Sequence record: MK524176.1
From: Escherichia phage PHB11
Direction: 5' to 3' (one strand)
Length of the DNA: 64,000 bases
In this document: positions 6,857 to 40,040 of the stretch, one piece after another
How the letters are laid out: each line of letters starts with the position of its first letter
Numbering within the stretch: the first letter of the stretch is position 1
Made by a program: the position numbers and the translations under genes
The notes under the pieces: generated by a model
Told to the model about the DNA's origin: nothing
The model's input: only the letters and a program-made list of their open reading frames with translations
Database searches by the model: none

Positions 6857-7224
6857 TTCTTTTTAGCCTCTAAACGTGCGTTTAATCTAAAATAGCCTTT
6901 ATGTTGTGGAGACACATCACCAACAACGATACCTTCAACTTTATAACCTTTACCGATTACATACTGGATATCCATAAGAAATGTACCAAGTCCTACAATG
7001 TGGAACATTGGGTATAATAACTTATCTGAATCTGGGAGATTAATATCTGGGTTGTAGGTAGGTTGTTTACTAGTAGGTGTAATATCTTCTTCAGGCCATT
7101 TACTTAGTCTCCATGTCAAAGGTGTTGGGATAACATCATTAAGATTGTACCTCCCACCATTCTCCACGGAATGGATATAGGATTGTAGGAAGCAATAAAA
7201 GTCTTTTGCACTCTTAGCCTTCAT
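6853..7224 (-). CDS. Hypothetical protein, paralog of the N-terminal domain of 5972..6856
   Basis: 123-aa ORF; shared motifs (GKRY, WPE.DI, KLLY) with its neighbour. Confidence 0.5.
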   Translation of the reverse strand: MKAKSAKDFYCFLQSYIHSVENGGRYNLNDVIPTPLTWRLSKWPEEDITPTSKQPTYNPDINLPDSDKLLYPMFHIVGLGTFLMDIQYVIGKGYKVEGIVVGDVSPQHKGYFRLNARLEAKKK

Positions 7225-7237
7225 TAAATATCCTTAT

Positions 7238-7263
7238 AAATAGATAAAGGGGCATTAGCCCCT
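7238..7263 (-). terminator. Candidate terminator hairpin
   Basis: AGGGGC-ATTA-GCCCCT with a T-rich run on the minus strand. Confidence 0.45.
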
Positions 7264-7271
7264 GTTTATAC

Positions 7272-7862
7272 TTAAGCTTTGGTCTTAAGTAGGTTCTTAA
7301 GTTTTTTGAGATTCATGCTCTCGTCAAACTTAAAACCAAATCCATTGACATAATCAATGAACTCGGATTTCTTACTGAGTGATAGCGCGTAACTCATATC
7401 AAAGTTATTACTTGTTTCTGCGTCTGGACTAGAGTTCACATCAAATGAAATTTCTGTAGGCTCTTGCTTGCTACTTCTCATATTATCAATTAATAGGCAT
7501 GTATAGTTCGCTGGATAGAAGTTTGCACTACCATCAACATACCCATACTTATTGTTGTGAATAAGGTTTGAAAATACCTTAAGAAATGTTTCTGAGTCGT
7601 GGCATACAAGTTTGAATTGACTGCACTCTCCAAGAGCCACTAGAGAGTAAGGACTTTCACTATCAATGTCATAGTTTGGATTTAATGCTGTAACCGTCAC
7701 ACGCATCAAGTTATTAGCAATAGTCTTCTGTTTAAAAGAATTTGGGACATAGTGAAGACCTCTATCACACTGATTAACTAACTCTTTAAGTAGGTCATTT
7801 GCATATGGTGAATTAATTGATACAGAGCCGTCACTATTGTAATTAAAACTTACTGTTAACAT
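7272..7862 (-). CDS. Hypothetical protein
   Basis: 196-aa ORF. Confidence 0.5.
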   Translation of the reverse strand: MLTVSFNYNSDGSVSINSPYANDLLKELVNQCDRGLHYVPNSFKQKTIANNLMRVTVTALNPNYDIDSESPYSLVALGECSQFKLVCHDSETFLKVFSNLIHNNKYGYVDGSANFYPANYTCLLIDNMRSSKQEPTEISFDVNSSPDAETSNNFDMSYALSLSKKSEFIDYVNGFGFKFDESMNLKKLKNLLKTKA

Positions 7863-8089
7863 TTTTCAGTTCTCCTGCGATTTATGATTTTGCTGCAATA
7901 GAGAAACGAAGTAAACTCACTGGAAGAAACCATTAAGTGTTGTTCACTAGACTGAGCCATTGCCCTGAAATACATTCCAGTCAAAGCATCGTAGTGACTA
8001 TTCTTTCCAATTGAGGTTATATAGCCATGACTCTTTGCAGTTTGATATAAATCTATAATATCTGCGATTTCTAATTGGGAACTACACAT
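7856..8089 (-). CDS. Hypothetical protein
   Basis: 77-aa ORF. Confidence 0.4.
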   Translation of the reverse strand: MCSSQLEIADIIDLYQTAKSHGYITSIGKNSHYDALTGMYFRAMAQSSEQHLMVSSSEFTSFLYCSKIINRRRTEKC

Positions 8090-8253
8090 AGATAATCCTC
8101 TTGTCTTCTGTAATTTTGAAAGAACAGGTACAGACCAATTTCAGAGGACGAATAGTAGAGTAACTCTACCCTTTTTGATTCCTTACAGTGATTGGTATTT
8201 TTACCTTTCTTCGGGTTGTTTGATTTTCTCATTAAGTCTCCTTTGTAGAACAA
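8071..8253 (-). CDS. Hypothetical small protein
   Basis: 60-aa ORF, first gene of the minus cluster; weak. Confidence 0.3.
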   Translation of the reverse strand: MFYKGDLMRKSNNPKKGKNTNHCKESKRVELLYYSSSEIGLYLFFQNYRRQEDYLCVVPN

Positions 8254-8330
8254 GGCAGACCTACAGCTTTAAGTAAGATGGTACAGTAATCCATACAACA
8301 AGTCAAGAACTATTGCAAGTTAAAAAAGTT

Positions 8331-8355
8331 GTTGACAAAGTACTTGACAAGGTGT
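8331..8355. promoter_or_regulatory. Conserved 25-bp block with two direct TTGACAA copies 12 bp apart in a divergent intergenic region
   Basis: GTTGACAAAGTACTTGACAAGGTGT; 24/25 identical to 50463..50487; no good -10 at 17 bp from either TTGACA. Confidence 0.5.
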
Positions 8356-8481
8356 AGGCTTATAAATACTTAGAAGATAACTTAAAAGGTTCCTCTAAAA
8401 AGGCTATTTAAACAGATATCTTTCTGGATATCTATCTTTTATCTTAAAAGCCTTTTAAGAGGTCTTATAAGAGGCATACCA

Positions 8482-34644: not shown

Positions 34645-35499
34645 ATGTTTGAAAAGATTGATAGTGTTTATTACAAAACACTTGATGAACGAACTGTAAC
34701 ACAGTTTAAAGATAAGTTTATCTACACAAGTATCTTGAAAGCAATCACTGATGAGTTACAAACATTAGAGGATGTTTGCTGGCAGATGCACACAGAGAGA
34801 AATATTAGGACGTCAGTAGGCCAACAACTTGATAATATTGGCTCACTGATTAAAGTTCCTAGACCTCTAGGTGCTGATGATGAAACATATAGAGCTATGC
34901 TTTATATCCAAATCTTCCTAAGACGCTCTGACACTACTCCAACATTCTTGCAAAAAGCAATTATGACACTATATGGTGCAACTTTCTCTCAGATTTTTGA
35001 GCATATTACTCCTAAGACTGGTGGTATCGTTATCCGTATTAACACCAGAAAAAACGTTCTTGATGCTGCATACACGCTATCAAAGATTTCTGCAACAACA
35101 ACTGGTTCTGCTGTTATCTTAAGAGATGTTACTTTAAAGGGGACTGCTTGGACACCTGTAGAGGTTGCTGATTCAGCACTTGCTATTGTTGATGATAAAG
35201 AGAACTGGTTCGTAACTGATGCTAACAGGGGTCTTGTTACAAATAACACTGGTGGCTCTCTGGAGTCCAACCTAGTAGGGAGTCTTGCAGATGCTGGTGT
35301 TATTGATGGTTACTTTAAGGTTGACAGAACAGCAAACTCACAGAGTGATGATTACATGACTGTAGATAGGTCTAATAATAGTGGATATTTCATCGTTGGT
35401 AAAGAAGCTGTTGCAGGTGGTGCATACGGAATCATGGCTGAGGTTGCACAAATTGTCAAAGGCAGAAAAGATAAATCACAACAAGAAGGAAATTCTTAA
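34645..35499 (+). CDS. Baseplate/tail fiber-associated protein, gpI-like (putative)
   Basis: 284-aa ORF after the J-like gene. Confidence 0.4.
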
Positions 35500-35801
35500 T
35501 GGCAGTTTTAAATTGGTCTACAAATGAAGTGGATACTGATGGTAATCAGTTAAAAGTTTTACCACCACCGGAAATTCAAGAGACAGGTCTTTTAAAGGGT
35601 GAGCCTATGGGTAGACAGTGGTTCAACTATATTATCAACTACCTGCTGAATAAAGTAAACGGCACTGTTGGTGAAGTTCGCTCATATGCAACTGAGCAAC
35701 CAGATTTAGTGGCTAATGGCTGGAATCTAATTAAGTCTGAGACAGGGACTGCATCAACAAGCACAAGAAACCTTTACACATATGAATATGTAGGAGCTTA
35801 A
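35499..35801 (+). CDS. Hypothetical tail protein
   Basis: 100-aa ORF. Confidence 0.4.
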
Positions 35802-35803
35802 TA

Positions 35804-36979
35804 ATGGCAGTAGGTGAAATTCAAATTAGTGCCTTGCCACAAGCGGCCTTACCAATTGATTTGAGTGATATCTTCCATCTTAAGCAAGGTGTTGAGGATA
35901 AAAGATGTACGCTTGAACAGTTGTTAGCACCTCACACATCTTTGAGGAATAACCCTCATGGTGTAACTAAATCGCAAGTTGGTCTTGATAATGTTATTAA
36001 CTCACTCCAATTGGTCGCAGCTAATAACTTGTCAGACATTGTAGATGTTGCTGAGGCAAGAGCAAATCTACAGATTATGTCGTCAGATGAAGTGAACAGT
36101 TTAATTCAGAGACATATCGACGACAAAAGTAACCCACACAATACAACGAAAGCACAGGTAGGGTTAAGTAATGTTCAGAACTGGACAACATCCAACTTAT
36201 ACAATGAAGATGCTGATAAATATGCTACCGCGAGAGCAGTGAATAATCTATACAAAGCTATCCAAGCATCATATCCAGTGGGGACTATTCATCTGTCTGT
36301 TAACTCTGCTAACCCATCCACTTACTTGCTTTGTGGAGGTACTTGGGAGTTGGTTTCTAAAGGTAGGGCGCTTGTTGGTTATGATACAGAAGCTAGACCT
36401 GTTGGTTCAACGTTCGGTTCTCAGACTGTAGCATTAACAAATAATAATTTACCAGCACACACCCACTCTATCTATTTAACAGGTGGTGGTCACACACACT
36501 CTGCAAGCGTATCTATCTCTAGTTTTGATTATGGTTCAAAAAGTACATCAACTTTTGATTACGGTACAAAAACGACTAATAGTGCTGGTGCTCACACTCA
36601 CACGTTTAGCGGCACGACAAGTAATGATGGTAACCATAACCATAGAGTACCACTGAGAGGTAATGATAGAAGTGGGGGGGATGCTATTACTGCATCTGCT
36701 TATGCTGGGGTTAATAATAATACGTATACTGATTTAGCAGGTGCTCACACCCATAGCTTCTCAGGCACAACTGCATCATCTGGTGCTCATAACCATACTG
36801 TTGCAATTGGTGCTCATAGCCACACTGTTAATATTGGTTCACACAGTCATACGGGTGCTGTTACTGTCTCTAGCTCTGAACATACACACTCAGGAACATC
36901 TGGTTCTGTTGGTGGTGGTCAAGCTTTCAGTGTTGAGCAGCCATCTTTTGTCGTATATGTATGGCAGAGAACAGCTTAA
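35804..36979 (+). CDS. Tail fiber protein with His-rich HxH repeats
   Basis: 391 aa; repeated HTHS/HNHT/HSHT motifs; C-terminus ...FSVEQPSFVVYVWQRTA resembles that of 37026..39395. Confidence 0.6.
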   Translation: MAVGEIQISALPQAALPIDLSDIFHLKQGVEDKRCTLEQLLAPHTSLRNNPHGVTKSQVGLDNVINSLQLVAANNLSDIVDVAEARANLQIMSSDEVNSLIQRHIDDKSNPHNTTKAQVGLSNVQNWTTSNLYNEDADKYATARAVNNLYKAIQASYPVGTIHLSVNSANPSTYLLCGGTWELVSKGRALVGYDTEARPVGSTFGSQTVALTNNNLPAHTHSIYLTGGGHTHSASVSISSFDYGSKSTSTFDYGTKTTNSAGAHTHTFSGTTSNDGNHNHRVPLRGNDRSGGDAITASAYAGVNNNTYTDLAGAHTHSFSGTTASSGAHNHTVAIGAHSHTVNIGSHSHTGAVTVSSSEHTHSGTSGSVGGGQAFSVEQPSFVVYVWQRTA

Positions 36980-37025
36980 TTTCTTTACAGGGGCTTTGTA
37001 GCCCCTTTTAAGAGGAAAATTTATA

Positions 37026-39395
37026 ATGGCAGATTACAAATTGAGTCAATTAAACTCAATCGACACAATTCGTTCAGAAGACCTATTGCACATCAGAGTT
37101 AAGAAAAGACCTGAAATGTTGGGTGACGAAGACCGTAGAATGACCTATCAAGACTTCTTAGCTTCCTTCAAACTAGAAAGGTTTGTTCAGATTGCTGGGA
37201 GTACTATGGTTGGGGATTTAGGTATTGTCAAGTTACTTTACGGTGGCAAGGCTGTATTTGACCCAACAGATTCTTCTGAGATTACTATTGGGGATGTTTT
37301 AAAGACTTTTAAAATTAACGCAAATGGTCTTAAACTAACTATTGCAGATGCTTCAAGGTCGGCAACTGTTTATCATACTTTGAATAAGCCAAGCCCTAAT
37401 GAGCTTGGGATGAGAACTAATGAAGAGAATGATGCAAGATATGCAAGGCTTGCTGTCACAAATAACTTCAGCATTAGGCAAGCAATCATAACTGATGGTG
37501 AGCAGTTAACTCTTAAGAAGGCAACCAATGCAGGTGCTTCATATATTCAAGGTAGAGATACTAATAACCAGCAAACTTGGTATGTTGGACAGGGAAATGC
37601 AAACAGCACTAATGTTTATTTGTACAATCATGCTACTGGTGCAATGTTAACCCTTGATGCAACAGCAGCATTTAATAAGTCACTTAGAATCACTGGACAA
37701 GTTCAACCTTCGGATTTCTCTAACTTAGATGCTAGATACTTCACTCAGACAGTTGCTAATCAGAGATTTGCACAGTTAGCTGGTAATAACACTTTTACAG
37801 GTGCTAATACATTTAATAACTATATCAGTGTGAACTCTAATGCTGCTGCTATCGTGCTAAAAAATAAGTCTGCTAATGAGTCTTTGTACATCCTAGCAAA
37901 AGATGTTGAAAACAATAATCTGTGGTTTATTGGTAAAGGTAGTGCAAATGACAATATCACATTTTATGATTACAAGGGCAATACTTCTATTGTATTAAAC
38001 TCGTCTGGTGCTGCATTCAGCAAGACTGTAAAAATCACTGGTCAAGTCCAACCTTCAGATTGGGCTAACATTGACTCTAGATATATTCCGGCAGATATTT
38101 TAAGCAATCTTGCTAAAATTAATGTAACTAACACATTTACCTCCCAGCAAATTATCCAAGCAAATGGTGAAGCTATTAGGCTAAAAAACTCTTCTGAGAA
38201 CTCACCATTGTATATCAGAGCACAGGACAACACTGGTGCTTATAGGTGGTATGTAGGTAATGGCTCGGGGAGTGATGATGTCACCATCCGCAATCACAAG
38301 ACAGATTGTGAGGTTATCCTATCTAGTGTCGTTGCTATTAATAAAACATTAAGCATCACTGGTCAAGTTAAACCCTCAGATTTCTCTAACTTAGATGCTA
38401 GATATTACACGCAATCTACCGCAAACTCTAGGTATATGCTTGCTTACTCTTCTGGCAGTGGTACAGAGGTGGGTGAGAGTGATGGTATTGTTTGGAATGC
38501 TAAAACTGGTCTGTATAATGTGTATAATAAATCTGGTGGCTCAACACAGCTAGTCTACCATATGTATCAGGGTACAAGTTCTACACCATCTGCACAGTTT
38601 AAGTTTATCTACAGGAATGGTGGTATTTTTTACAGGACAGCACGAGATGGGTATGGTTTTGAGCAGGCATGGGCTAAAATCTATACAGACCAAGATAAAC
38701 CAACCCCTTCAGAGATTGGTGCGTACACTAAAGCTGAAACTGACCAGAAGATTGCAGAAGCGATTAGTGACTCTACAGACCTGAATAAAATCTATCCAGT
38801 AGGTATTGTGACGTGGTTTAACAGTAATGTTAACCCTAATACAGCACTTCCTGGGTTAACTTGGACGTACCTGAACAATGGTGTTGGTAGAACTATTAGA
38901 ATTGCAGCAGCAAACGGTTCAGATGTTGCTACAACTGGTGGTTCAGATTCTGTAACACTATCTGTTGGTAACTTACCTTCACACACGCATAGTTTCTCTG
39001 CTACCACTTCATCATTTGATTATGGTACTAAGACGACAAATACGACTGGCAACCATGCTCATGATAGAGGTAACATGGAAATTTCTGGTGTGTTTGGTTG
39101 GTTCAGAAGTGATAACGGTGCATTCTACACTGCTAGTGGTGCATTTGTGATGGGTGGTAGTCAGGCTTCGCATGGCTTCACAGGCTCTAACTTCACTTAT
39201 GGTGCGCCTGTTGATTTCCACGCGTCAAGAACTTGGACAGGTGTAACCAACACGACTGGTAACCACGCCCACAGTGTAGGTATTGGCGCTCACAGCCACA
39301 CAGTTAGTGGTAACACAGGTGGTACTGGTTCTGGTTCAGCATTTAGTGTTACTAACCAGTTCTATAAGCTAATGGCTTGGGTAAGGACTGCTTAA
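37026..39395 (+). CDS. Long tail fiber protein (paralogous C-terminal HxH domain)
   Basis: 789 aa; internal repeats (ITGQVQPSD.SNLDARY x3); C-terminal HTHSFSATTSSFDYGTKTTN ... HAHSVGIGAHSHTV ... AWVRTA. Confidence 0.6.
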   Translation: MADYKLSQLNSIDTIRSEDLLHIRVKKRPEMLGDEDRRMTYQDFLASFKLERFVQIAGSTMVGDLGIVKLLYGGKAVFDPTDSSEITIGDVLKTFKINANGLKLTIADASRSATVYHTLNKPSPNELGMRTNEENDARYARLAVTNNFSIRQAIITDGEQLTLKKATNAGASYIQGRDTNNQQTWYVGQGNANSTNVYLYNHATGAMLTLDATAAFNKSLRITGQVQPSDFSNLDARYFTQTVANQRFAQLAGNNTFTGANTFNNYISVNSNAAAIVLKNKSANESLYILAKDVENNNLWFIGKGSANDNITFYDYKGNTSIVLNSSGAAFSKTVKITGQVQPSDWANIDSRYIPADILSNLAKINVTNTFTSQQIIQANGEAIRLKNSSENSPLYIRAQDNTGAYRWYVGNGSGSDDVTIRNHKTDCEVILSSVVAINKTLSITGQVKPSDFSNLDARYYTQSTANSRYMLAYSSGSGTEVGESDGIVWNAKTGLYNVYNKSGGSTQLVYHMYQGTSSTPSAQFKFIYRNGGIFYRTARDGYGFEQAWAKIYTDQDKPTPSEIGAYTKAETDQKIAEAISDSTDLNKIYPVGIVTWFNSNVNPNTALPGLTWTYLNNGVGRTIRIAAANGSDVATTGGSDSVTLSVGNLPSHTHSFSATTSSFDYGTKTTNTTGNHAHDRGNMEISGVFGWFRSDNGAFYTASGAFVMGGSQASHGFTGSNFTYGAPVDFHASRTWTGVTNTTGNHAHSVGIGAHSHTVSGNTGGTGSGSAFSVTNQFYKLMAWVRTA

Positions 39396-39474: not shown

Positions 39475-39672
39475 ATGCCTACAATCCTAGCAATTCTTCT
39501 AAAAAATCTAGGTAGCTTCTTCTGGAAACTCATTTTATCCCTTCTAAGTGAATACATGATTGAGAAAGTGTTCTTTAGGCTTGCAAGATACCTTGCGAGT
39601 AAAACAGACACACCTATTGATGATGAGTTCGTAGATAACTTAGAAAAAGCTTTTAAGGGGGAGAATAAATGA
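39475..39672 (+). CDS. Small membrane protein
   Basis: 65-aa ORF with hydrophobic N-terminus. Confidence 0.4.
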   Translation: MPTILAILLKNLGSFFWKLILSLLSEYMIEKVFFRLARYLASKTDTPIDDEFVDNLEKAFKGENK

Positions 39673-40040
39673 AGTGGCTAGAGGAAGCTTTTAAAAATAA
39701 TATTGGTGCAATTGTAGTTGGTATTTTTAGTGTTATTGGGATGTACACCACCATGCAAGTTTCGGATGGTAAACAAGAAGTGTCTATCACAACAAAGTTA
39801 CAGCAGTTAGATAATTATTCCAAAAGTAATTATTCAGCTATTCGTGATTTACAGTCTGATATGAGGCTGCTTCAGCTAGGGATGGAGAACCAGAAAGTCC
39901 AGTTAGAGAATGTTAAGGGTGAGAACGCAAAACTTACTAAGACTCTTGATAAATTCTCTGATAGTGTAAACAATCTGGCTCAATCAGTATCAGCCCTCCA
40001 AGCTATTACTGAAAAGAACACAAAGAATACTGAAAAGTAA
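39669..40040 (+). CDS. Membrane-anchored coiled-coil protein
   Basis: 123-aa ORF: N-terminal TM (IGAIVVGIFSVIGMY) followed by a helical region. Confidence 0.45.
   Translation: MKWLEEAFKNNIGAIVVGIFSVIGMYTTMQVSDGKQEVSITTKLQQLDNYSKSNYSAIRDLQSDMRLLQLGMENQKVQLENVKGENAKLTKTLDKFSDSVNNLAQSVSALQAITEKNTKNTEK

What the first reader, a model, noticed from the sequence alone, without database searches (positions are those of the whole stretch)
35804..39395. Two tail fiber proteins sharing a His-rich HxH-repeat C-terminal module
Both fibers end with a domain containing repeated HTHS/HNHT/HSHT motifs and a similar final segment (...AFSV...VWQRTA versus ...AFSV...AWVRTA), while their N-terminal and central regions differ; the longer one has three internal repeats of about 100 aa. 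HxH repeats coordinate metal ions in the receptor-binding tips of some phage fibers, so a shared tip on two different shafts suggests module exchange.
Basis: partly seen in the sequence, partly recalled or inferred. Interest (0 to 1): 0.35.

Follow-up and report, generated by a model that had tools for sequence, protein, structure and literature searches.

The report
Felix O1-type phage fibres, T4-like tips
These are the short and long tail fibres of a Felix O1-like E. coli phage; both end in the already described T4 gp37-type collar, histidine needle and head tip, so the feature is real but ordinary, and what gets swapped between phages is the small head inside the needle.

Summary
ORFs 35804-36979 (391 aa) and 37026-39395 (789 aa) are the short (STF) and long (LTF) tail fibres of a Felixounavirus, 95% nt identical to phage EC6. 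They carry 9 and 4 HxH motifs. The LTF has three internal repeats of 107-115 aa.

The shared part is a scaffold, not a shared receptor-binding tip. It is a gp10/gp12-type collar domain interrupted by a beta-hairpin "needle", as in T4 gp37 (PDB 2XGF; STF E=7.5e-27). In T4 the HxH layers of that needle hold iron. The receptor-contacting head sits between the descending and ascending HxH runs. The two heads here are unrelated (17% identity), against 35-38% for the scaffold.

No recent exchange between the two genes is visible; the best shared DNA is 44-51 nt at 73-77%. Exchange does occur between phages. The LTF head cassette (nt 39003-39304) is 87% nt identical to gp37 of a Tequatrovirus and 69% aa identical to E. 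coli prophage fibres, both with T4-type collars. Phage REP7 carries this LTF's collar with a T4-type head.

This architecture was noted for Felix O1 in 2010 and shown by cryo-EM of Bas63 in 2025. It is already known, so interest is low.

The parts
35804..36979 (+). Short tail fibre (STF) gene, 391 aa; orthologue of Bas63 gp26
   Evidence: ORF. 75% aa identity to Bas63 gp26 in the same gene order wedge2-wedge1-platform-STF-LTF. PHROG 2097 tail fibre, E=5.5e-138.
35804..36253 (+). STF N-terminal baseplate-binding and shaft region (aa 1-150), with two NPHxxTKxQVGLxNV motifs at aa 50-64 and 110-124
   Evidence: 88-96% identical to Bas63 gp26 and 81-97% identical across 29 related loci. The role is taken from the Bas63 cryo-EM paper (PMC12609058).
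36272..36457 (+). STF collar domain, N-terminal part (aa 157-218)
   Evidence: Pfam Gp10_C PF21939 envelope aa 154-390 maps to profile positions 3-139 of 139, so the domain is interrupted by an insertion. Aligns to the T4 gp10 C-terminal domain 2FKK and to the gp37 collar.
36458..36643 (+). STF descending needle strand (aa 219-280) with HxH at 219, 230, 264 and 278 and two FDYG(S/T)K repeats
   Evidence: homology to gp37 883-931.
36644..36745 (+). STF head (tip) subdomain, aa 281-314, hypervariable
   Evidence: 24-36% identical in most related loci while flanking segments stay at 59-98%. Aligns to the gp37 tip region 932-959. AF2 pLDDT is below 50 at 287-305.
36746..36889 (+). STF ascending needle strand (aa 315-362) with HxH at 315, 329, 338, 347 and 360
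   Evidence: The 9-residue GxHxHxVxI periodicity matches gp37 980/989/998.
36890..36976 (+). STF C-terminal strands that close the collar domain (aa 363-391, ...QAFSVEQPSFVVYVWQRTA)
   Evidence: The Pfam Gp10_C hit runs to aa 390 and profile position 139. Aligns to the gp37 end ...NIAFNYIVRLA.
37026..39395 (+). Long tail fibre (LTF) gene, 789 aa; orthologue of Bas63 gp27
   Evidence: ORF. PHROG 4277, E=0, full length. 68% identity to Bas63 gp27.
37431..38441 (+). Three tandem shaft repeats: R1 aa 136-250, R2 251-365, R3 366-472 (Pfam gp37_trimer)
   Evidence: Repeat 2 matches the T7 gp17 fibre 4A0T/4A0U at E about 3e-5.
38442..38780 (+). Knob domain (aa 473-585), homologous to phage Mu fibre protein S
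   Evidence: PDB 8JU3, E=1.6e-25. Pfam gp37_C PF12604, E=1.9e-22. Foldseek of the AF2 model against 8JU3, E=1.4e-5.
38793..38981 (+). LTF collar domain, N-terminal part (aa 590-652)
   Evidence: Pfam Gp10_C at 587-689. 94-100% identical in 21 of the 27 loci with an intact LTF.
38982..39062 (+). LTF descending needle strand (aa 653-679) with HxH at 653 and 677 and one FDYGTK motif
39063..39263 (+). LTF enlarged head (aa 680-746, the 'W-type' head)
   Evidence: 24-38% identical in most relatives, but 67-73% in L003-L005 and in L022/L024. 69% identical to E. coli prophage fibre P0145. Found in 59 phage records.
39264..39392 (+). LTF ascending needle strand (HxH at 747 and 756) and the C-terminal collar strands (aa 747-789)
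   Evidence: The last 39 aa are 100% identical to Bas63 gp27.
39003..39304 (+). Exchangeable head cassette as delimited by DNA identity to a T4-like phage
   Evidence: blastn finds 87% identity over 302 nt to gp37 of Tequatrovirus CJY920 (L039) and 75% to Mosigvirus ZQ3 (L040). Against Bas63, nt identity falls from at least 90% to 17-60% between about aa 661 and 750.
35499..35801 (+). 100-aa protein upstream; orthologue of Bas63 gp25, the LTF platform
   Evidence: Synteny. Role taken from PMC12609058. PHROG 4141, function unknown.

Best explanation
The window comes from a Felix O1-like myovirus (Felixounavirus). The two genes encode its homotrimeric short and long tail fibres.

Each fibre ends in a T4 gp37-type receptor-binding module. 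A collar domain of the gp10/gp12 fold is interrupted by a long beta-hairpin. In the trimer the three hairpins form a six-stranded needle. Each HxH motif from the three chains is expected to form one octahedral six-histidine metal site, which holds iron in T4. The hairpin turn forms the small distal head that touches the receptor.

By motif count, the short fibre would hold up to nine metal layers around a roughly 30-aa head. The long fibre would hold four layers around an enlarged roughly 65-aa head.

The histidine layers are a folding and rigidity scaffold, not the specificity determinant. Specificity lies in the head, which differs between the two fibres, so they most likely recognise different surface structures.

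The conserved FDYGTK...GxHxH and GxHxHxVxIGAHxH motifs that flank the head coincide with the recombination junctions. Head cassettes are swapped there between Felixounavirus fibres, T-even gp37 and E. coli prophage fibres.

Shown here: homology, domain layout, motif conservation and the mosaic pattern. Taken from the literature: the trimeric needle and iron binding. Inferred: the metal occupancy of these particular proteins and their receptors.
For: Identity of the phage and the genes:
- 95% nt identity to phage EC6 over the locus; 235 matching records, mostly Felixounavirus-type phages of E. coli and Salmonella.
- Same gene order as Bas63 gp23-gp27.
- 75% and 68% aa identity to Bas63 gp26 and gp27.

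Homology to the T4 tip:
- STF aa 146-362 matches 2XGF (gp37 785-1026) at E=7.5e-27; LTF aa 647-768 matches it at E=9.5e-5.
- Pfam Gp10_C spans STF 154-390 and covers profile positions 3-139, so the needle is an insertion in the collar. This mirrors gp37, where D11 (882-1009) is an insertion into D10 (811-881 plus 1010-1026) (PMC6957217).
- Motif-by-motif alignment with gp37 (HxH at 883, 915, 929 | 966, 980, 989, 998) is.
- HxH conservation is 55-57 of 57 sequences (LTF) and 31-58 of 58 (STF).

Structure:
- The AF2 monomer model of the STF shows a confident collar (pLDDT 83-93 for aa 141-200; 88-90 for the C-terminal strands, aa 381-391) and paired beta-strands through the HxH region. Foldseek finds the gp10 C-terminal domain at probability 0.94-1.0.
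- Cryo-EM of the orthologous Bas63 fibres describes collar, HxH needle and head for both fibres (PMC12609058).

Head as the variable, exchangeable part:
- 2x2 table. Collar identity: T4~P0145 83%, window LTF~REP7 100%, cross pairs 21-25%. Head identity: T4~REP7 83%, window LTF~P0145 69%, cross pairs 22-25%.
- 87% nt identity over 302 nt to a Tequatrovirus gp37.
- Breakpoints fall at about aa 661-680 and 741-750.
Against: - No direct evidence of metal binding or trimer geometry exists for these two proteins.
- Only monomer AF2 was available and confidence was moderate to low: mean pLDDT 69 (STF) and 60 (LTF C-terminus), and below 50 in both heads.
- Foldseek did not return 2XGF itself for either model.
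- In T4, folding of this module needs the chaperones gp57A and gp38. No gp38 or Caudo_TAP homologue was found among the ORFs of the window. Assembly may therefore differ, or a chaperone may lie outside the 64 kb or be unrecognisable.
- The Pfam collar hit on the LTF covers only the N-terminal part of the domain, at 26.9 bits against a cut-off of 27.
- The receptors of either fibre are unknown.
Confidence: 0.85

Rival explanations
1. The shared C-terminal module results from a recent exchange or gene conversion between the two fibre genes of this genome. On this reading both fibres carry the same receptor-binding tip and bind the same receptor.
For: Both C-termini align significantly (E=1e-11). 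They share short motifs such as SSFDYGTKTTN and GAHSHTV, and similar end segments.
Against: - Identity is only 33% overall: collar 35%, C-terminus 38%, head 17%.
- The longest shared DNA stretches are 44-51 nt at 73-77%.
- The shared motifs are equally present in T4 gp37 and in prophage fibres, so they are family-wide conserved motifs.
- Each fibre's tip is much closer to its orthologue in other phages than to its paralogue.
Confidence: 0.03
2. The His-rich stretches are low-complexity or disordered linkers, or a non-specific metal-binding tail, with no defined structural role.
For: AF2 confidence is only 50-70 across much of the His-rich region. The composition is biased towards G, S, T and H.
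Against: - Strong sequence homology to the crystallised gp37 needle.
- Near-invariant HxH columns in diverse homologues.
- Regular 9-residue spacing of the motifs.
- Predicted paired beta-strands rather than coil.
- Cryo-EM density for the needle in Bas63 (PMC12609058).
- The iron-binding His929 and His931 are essential in T4 (PMC6957217).
Confidence: 0.02
3. The architecture is as described, but the bound metal or the role of the HxH layers differs from T4. For example, zinc could replace iron, as in the T4 gp12 short fibre. Alternatively only some of the motifs may be occupied, particularly the less conserved STF motifs at 230, 264 and 360.
For: The STF motifs at 264 and 360 are intact in only 36 and 31 of 58 homologues. 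Motif numbers vary among relatives: 7 or 9 in the STF, and 4, 6 or 7 in the LTF. That gp12 binds zinc through histidines is my own recollection and was not checked here.
Against: The closest solved homologue (gp37) binds iron at every HxH layer (PMC6957217). Nothing in the sequence distinguishes which metal is preferred.
Confidence: 0.1

Closest known systems
Bas63 (Escherichia phage JohannRWettstein) STF gp26 and LTF gp27; cryo-EM, Sci Adv 2025 (PMC12609058)
   Same: - Same genus, same gene order and same two-fibre system.
- Both fibres end in collar + HxH needle + head.
- N-terminal parts are 88-96% identical, the LTF collar is 88-96% identical, and the last 39 aa of the LTF are 100% identical.
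- Pfam architecture is the same.
   Different: - Tip cassettes differ. Window STF has 9 HxH against 7 in gp26; identity in aa 251-300 is 34%.
- Window LTF has 4 HxH against 6 in gp27, and an enlarged head; identity in aa 701-750 is 28%.
T4 gp37 receptor-binding tip, domains D10/D11 (PDB 2XGF)
   Same: - Collar interrupted by a hairpin needle with HxH layers on both strands and a distal head.
- Conserved FDYGTK and GxHxHxVxIGAHxH motifs.
- Conserved C-terminal collar strand.
   Different: - gp37 has 7 HxH layers. Its collar belongs to the Pfam 'Collar' PF07484 type and is only 20-21% identical to either collar here.
- gp37 is the distal quarter of a four-protein kinked fibre and needs gp38 and gp57A.
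- Here each fibre is a single protein, and no gp38 or Tfa homologue was found in the window.
Escherichia phages EC6, SME50, HMD-P10 and ZX4221 (Felixounavirus)
   Same: - EC6 is 95% nt identical over the whole locus.
- SME50 has both heads 100% identical. HMD-P10 has the STF head 100% identical, and ZX4221 the LTF head 100% identical.
   Different: The EC6 record has the LTF split into two ORFs, whereas it is intact here. Otherwise the fibres are essentially the same.
E. coli prophage side tail fibres (P0142-P0149) and T-even gp37 of CJY920 and ZQ3
   Same: They carry the same W-type enlarged head as the window LTF. P0145 is 69% aa identical. CJY920 is 95.5% aa and 87% nt identical.
   Different: - The collar and C-terminus are T4-type (83-84% to T4, 21-25% to the window).
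- The prophage versions are followed by a Macro-domain protein and a Caudo_TAP chaperone gene.
Phage Mu tail fibre protein S (PDB 8JU3) and R-type pyocin fibres (6CL5, 6CT8)
   Same: LTF aa 473-577 is a homologous knob domain: 8JU3 at E=1.6e-25 by sequence and E=1.4e-5 by Foldseek.
   Different: Only this one domain is shared. In Mu it lies near the C-terminal receptor-binding end, whereas here it precedes the collar-needle-head module.

Membership tests
T4 gp37-type receptor-binding tip (collar D10 + needle/stem and head D11) | Significant sequence homology to gp37 residues about 785-1026 (2XGF) | tested here: met
   STF E=7.5e-27 over aa 146-362; LTF E=9.5e-5 over aa 647-768.
T4 gp37-type receptor-binding tip (collar D10 + needle/stem and head D11) | Collar domain of the gp10/gp11/gp12 fold, interrupted by the needle insertion and closed by the C-terminal strand | tested here: met
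   STF: Pfam Gp10_C aa 154-390 maps to profile 3-139/139, and Foldseek finds gp10 C-terminal domains at probability 0.94-1.0. LTF: the Gp10_C hit covers the N-terminal part only, at 26.9 bits against a cut-off of 27; the C-terminal strand is aligned to the STF and to gp37.
T4 gp37-type receptor-binding tip (collar D10 + needle/stem and head D11) | Conserved HxH motifs on both the descending and the ascending strand | tested here: met
   STF has 4+5 and LTF has 2+2. They are conserved in 31-58 of 58 and 55-57 of 57 homologues.
T4 gp37-type receptor-binding tip (collar D10 + needle/stem and head D11) | Homotrimeric six-stranded beta-needle | not testable with these tools
   Only monomer AF2 was available; it predicts paired strands at moderate confidence. 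The cryo-EM paper on the orthologue Bas63 supports the needle (PMC12609058).
T4 gp37-type receptor-binding tip (collar D10 + needle/stem and head D11) | One iron ion per HxH layer, six-His octahedral coordination | not testable with these tools
   Inferred from gp37 (PMC6957217).
T4 gp37-type receptor-binding tip (collar D10 + needle/stem and head D11) | Dependence on dedicated chaperones (gp38, gp57A) | tested here: not met
   phmmer of T4 gp38 and of a Caudo_TAP protein against 553 six-frame ORFs of the window gave no hit at E<=10. gp57A was not tested, and the window covers only 64 kb of a genome of about 86-90 kb.
Felixounavirus STF/LTF pair (Bas63 gp26/gp27, Felix O1 gp76/gp77) | Synteny wedge2 (489 aa) - wedge1 (284 aa) - platform (100 aa) - STF - LTF, and orthology of both fibres | tested here: met
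   Identity to Bas63 is 75% and 68%. All 29 related loci have the same order.
Pfam PF20744 gp37_trimer shaft repeats | Tandem domains of about 95 aa that pass the gathering threshold | tested here: met
   E=9.5e-65, 215 bits against a cut-off of 21.7, three stretches. Internal repeat BLASTP E from 5e-21 to 1e-32.
Mu gpS-type knob (Pfam PF12604 gp37_C; PDB 8JU3) | Sequence and fold match to the knob domain | tested here: met
   PF12604 E=1.9e-22. 8JU3 E=1.6e-25. Foldseek E=1.4e-5, 46% identity over 100 columns.

The most novel reading that the evidence does not exclude
The enlarged, roughly 65-aa 'W-type' head of the long fibre is flanked by only four His layers and has no solved structure. It may be a portable receptor-binding cassette that circulates between three otherwise unrelated fibre frames: the Felixounavirus LTF, T-even gp37 and E. 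coli prophage side fibres.

It also appears to track hosts. It is present in 35 Escherichia, 20 Shigella, 2 Citrobacter and 1 Salmonella phage records. By contrast, 79 Salmonella phages are among the 235 records that match the fibre locus.

If so, it would define a receptor class that can be moved between phage families by swapping about 300 nt bounded by His-box motifs.
Probability: 0.45. Interest if true: 0.4.

Novelty: already known. Interest (0 to 1): 0.2.

Why it matters
The finding has little value as a discovery. That both Felix O1-type fibres end in a gp37-like C-terminus was noted in 2010 (PMC3185647). The collar, HxH needle and head architecture of both fibres was shown by cryo-EM in 2025 (PMC12609058).

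The practical value is in annotation and engineering:
- It locates the likely host-range determinants precisely: STF nt 36644-36745 and LTF nt 39063-39263.
- It shows that the conserved FDYGTK and His-box motifs bound a roughly 300-nt cassette that nature already swaps between Felix-like, T4-like and prophage fibres.
- That cassette is therefore a ready-made design unit for retargeting phages against E. coli O157, Shigella or Salmonella.

Tried and rejected
- **Foldseek of the two AF2 monomer models against the PDB.** The STF model gave only weak hits: gp10 C-terminal domains at E 0.03-0.06, plus spurious matches of the long hairpin to pore-forming toxins (lysenin, aerolysin). For the LTF model only the Mu knob was significant. 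2XGF itself was not recovered, probably because a monomer model of an intertwined trimer has the wrong global shape. I therefore rely on sequence homology for the needle.
- **The original gp37 tip structure paper (PMC2996694).** It is not held in the library. I used PMC6957217 and PMC12609058 for the structural facts instead.
- **PMC13419801, an O157:H7 receptor screen.** Only about 3,450 characters of this record are held and none of my search terms occur in it.
- **The 2026 receptor-prediction preprint.** It only says that Felixounavirus belongs to clades known to use O-polysaccharide or LPS, and it assigns no receptor.
- **Recent intragenomic exchange between the two genes.** Rejected, because there are no long shared DNA stretches.
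- **Search for a fibre chaperone in the window** (T4 gp38, Caudo_TAP). Nothing was found. The two small ORFs downstream have no informative Pfam or PHROG match.
- **Two accession guesses** (MZ501111, MZ501076) and a third (MZ501085) were needed before Bas63 was located as MZ501086.


Full report
**1. What is there**

The locus is 95% nt identical to Escherichia phage EC6. It matches 235 phage records, mostly Felixounavirus-type phages of E. coli and Salmonella.

The surrounding genes are baseplate wedge 2 (489 aa), wedge 1 (284 aa) and a 100-aa protein, followed by the two fibres. Two small ORFs come next, and then thymidylate synthase and DHFR on the opposite strand. This is the order in EC6 and in Bas63, where the corresponding genes are gp23 to gp27. 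All 29 related loci fetched from IMG/VR have the same platform-STF-LTF order.

The 391-aa protein is therefore the short tail fibre (STF) and the 789-aa protein is the long tail fibre (LTF) of a Felix O1-like myovirus.

**2. Checking the observation**

- The STF has nine HxH motifs (aa 219, 230, 264, 278, 315, 329, 338, 347, 360). Shuffles of its own residues give a mean of 1.4 and a maximum of 6.
- The LTF has four (aa 653, 677, 747, 756). Shuffles give a mean of 0.27 and a maximum of 3.
- The two C-terminal regions align at 33% identity over 201 columns, E=1e-11.
- The three internal LTF repeats are real. They cover aa 136-250, 251-365 and 366-472, are 30-47% identical, and give BLASTP E from 5e-21 to 1e-32. 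The DNA repeat spacing is 345 and 321 nt. Pfam recognises them as three gp37_trimer domains (E=9.5e-65).

**3. Anatomy of the shared module**

STF aa 146-362 matches the crystallised T4 gp37 tip (2XGF) at E=7.5e-27. LTF aa 647-768 matches it at E=9.5e-5.

In gp37, the collar domain D10 (811-881 plus 1010-1026) has the fold of the gp12, gp10 and gp11 domains. D11 (882-1009) is an insertion into it, made of a stem (882-931 and 960-1009) and a tip (932-959). Seven iron atoms are coordinated by histidines along the needle. Receptor-binding mutations map to the tip (PMC6957217).

The same topology is visible here. The Pfam Gp10_C hit on the STF runs from aa 154 to 390 while covering profile positions 3-139 of 139, so the collar is split by a long insertion.

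Aligning gp37 with both fibres places the gp37 HxH motifs (883, 915, 929 | 966, 980, 989, 998) against the fibre motifs:
- STF: 219, 264, 278 | 315, 329, 338, 347. The STF has two extra, collar-proximal motifs at 230 and 360.
- LTF: 653, 677 | 747, 756. The LTF lacks the head-proximal pair (equivalents of 929 and 966) and the equivalent of 998, and has a larger head instead.

This is the strand that closes the collar.

The histidines are conserved. The four LTF motifs are intact in 55-57 of 57 diverse homologues, although mean column identity is only 21%. The STF motifs are intact in 31-58 of 58.

**4. Structure prediction**

Only monomer AF2 was available.

The STF model has a mean pLDDT of 69. 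The collar is confident (83-93 for aa 141-200, 88-90 for the C-terminal strands, aa 381-391). Paired strands run through the His region, and confidence falls below 50 in the head (287-305). Foldseek returns gp10 C-terminal domains at probability 0.94-1.0 but weak E-values, plus spurious hairpin matches to pore-forming toxins.

The LTF C-terminal model is poorer, with a mean pLDDT of 60. Its only significant match is the Mu fibre 8JU3, for the knob at aa 473-577. This agrees with the sequence match at E=1.6e-25.

These models neither add to nor contradict the sequence evidence. The trimeric needle and the metal sites remain inferred from T4 and from the Bas63 cryo-EM.

**5. What is shared and what is not**

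I split the module into collar, head cassette (from the HxH after FDYGTK to the GxHxHxVxIGAH motif) and C-terminus. Between the window STF and LTF, identity is 35% for the collar, 17% for the head cassette and 38% for the C-terminus.

The longest DNA stretches common to the two genes are 44-51 nt at 73-77% identity. They cover motifs that T4 gp37 also has.

So the two fibres share an old, diverged structural frame. They do not share a receptor-binding tip, and nothing indicates a recent exchange between them.

**6. Where exchange does happen**

Across 29 related loci, the N-terminal attachment regions, the collars and the C-terminal strands are conserved. The LTF collar is 94-100% identical in 21 of the 27 loci with an intact LTF. 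The heads are hypervariable, at 24-38% identity in most loci. Two phages with the most divergent backbone (wedge 77%) have the same head types as the window: STF head 61% and LTF head 71-73%.

Against Bas63, LTF nt identity is at least 90% up to about aa 660. It drops to 17-60% across aa 681-740 and returns to 90% from aa 751.

A 2x2 comparison makes the point:
- Collars: T4 gp37 and an E. coli prophage fibre (P0145) are 83% identical. The window LTF and the phage REP7 LTF (P0125) are 100% identical. Cross pairs are 21-25%.
- Heads: T4 gp37 and the REP7 LTF are 83% identical. The window LTF and P0145 are 69% identical. Cross pairs are 22-25%.

At the DNA level, window nt 39003-39304 is 87% identical to gp37 of Tequatrovirus CJY920 and 75% identical to gp37 of Mosigvirus ZQ3. 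Both of those fibres have T4-type collars and C-termini.

The exchanged unit is therefore the head plus the adjacent stem layers, bounded by the FDYGTK...GxHxH and GxHxHxVxIGAH motifs. From memory only, and not checked here: 'His boxes' flanking variable gp37 segments and acting as recombination sites were described for T-even phages by Tetart, Krisch and colleagues in the 1990s.

**7. Host association**

The window's LTF head type occurs in 59 phage records: 35 Escherichia (many O157:H7), 20 Shigella, 2 Citrobacter, 1 Salmonella and 1 unnamed. By comparison, 79 Salmonella phages are among the 235 records that match the locus as a whole.

The STF head type is at least 80% identical in 38 records, again mostly O157:H7 phages.

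This is a correlation without phylogenetic correction. It fits the idea that the heads carry specificity. The receptors themselves are unknown. The literature says only that Felix O1-type phages depend on the LPS core (PMC8594841; bioRxiv 10.64898/2026.04.02.716166).

**8. Comparison with what is known**

The Felix O1 genome paper of 2010 already reported that gp76 and gp77 resemble T4 gp37 at their C-termini (PMC3185647).

The Bas63 cryo-EM paper of 2025 describes both fibres as ending in a gp37-like tip with collar, HxH needle and head. It counts seven motifs in the STF and six in the LTF, which I reproduced on its sequence (PMC12609058).

The window differs only in the tip alleles: 9 and 4 motifs, and an enlarged LTF head. 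These alleles are already present in sequenced phages. SME50 has both heads 100% identical, and EC6 is 95% nt identical over the locus.

My verdict is 'already known'. Its structural guess about metal-binding HxH motifs is right by homology. Its evolutionary reading needs correction: the shared part is the frame, and the swapped part is the head.

**9. Open points**

- No homologue of T4 gp38 or of Tfa-type chaperones was found in the window, although the prophage fibres with the same head are followed by a Caudo_TAP gene. How these fibres fold is unresolved.
- Metal identity and occupancy, trimer geometry, the fold of the W-type head, and the receptors all need experiments or multimer modelling.

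Noticed in passing
L001/L002 (EC6) locus 7223-9593; L028: In the EC6 record the long-fibre gene is split into two overlapping ORFs (541 + 259 aa). It is also split in IMG/VR locus L028 (453 + 311 aa). In the window it is one intact 789-aa ORF. This probably reflects frameshift sequencing errors or real pseudogenisation in those records.
   Followed up: partly
window 39003-39304; L039 3941-4242; L040 3950-4233: The LTF head cassette is 87% nt identical over 302 nt to gp37 of a Tequatrovirus (CJY920). It is 75% identical to gp37 of a Mosigvirus (ZQ3). This indicates exchange of a roughly 300-nt tip cassette between phage families.
   Followed up: yes
P0125 (Escherichia phage REP7), P0133: These are Felixounavirus long fibres with a collar and C-terminus 96-100% identical to the window's LTF. 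Their head, however, is 83% identical to the T4 gp37 head. This is the reciprocal chimera of the case above.
   Followed up: yes
L036/L037 (E. coli chromosomal contigs) 1-2876: E. coli prophage fibres carrying the same head type are followed by a Macro-domain protein (296 aa) and then a Caudo_TAP tail-fibre chaperone. A Macro domain between a fibre gene and its chaperone is unusual, and I did not examine it further.
   Followed up: no
P0126, P0141; organism list: Fragments closely matching the Felixounavirus long fibre are labelled Staphylococcus hyicus (P0126, 66% identity over the full query) and Pseudomonas aeruginosa (P0141, 92% over 39% of it). 'Staphylococcus' and 'Campylobacter' phage records also appear among the megablast hits. 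These are probably contamination or mislabelling.
   Followed up: no
window 35951-35995 and 36131-36175: The short fibre's shaft carries two copies of the motif NPHxxTKxQVGLxNV (aa 50-64 and 110-124). This stretch matches many unrelated PHROG tail-protein families. It is probably the 'triple alpha-helix and turn' element described for Bas63.
   Followed up: no
window 39475-39672 and 39669-40040: Two small ORFs lie directly after the fibre genes (65 and 123 aa). They are conserved in all related loci. The N-terminal stretches look hydrophobic by eye (not tested). Their PHROG families have unknown function and there is no significant Pfam hit. They could be lysis-related or fibre-assembly proteins.
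   Followed up: partly
window 37026-39395 versus L003-L005: Some phages have wedge and short-fibre genes 95-98% identical to the window's. Even in these, the long-fibre shaft repeats (50-60%) and knob (40-43%) are strongly diverged and the protein is about 60 aa longer. Mosaicism therefore affects the shaft as well as the tip.
   Followed up: partly
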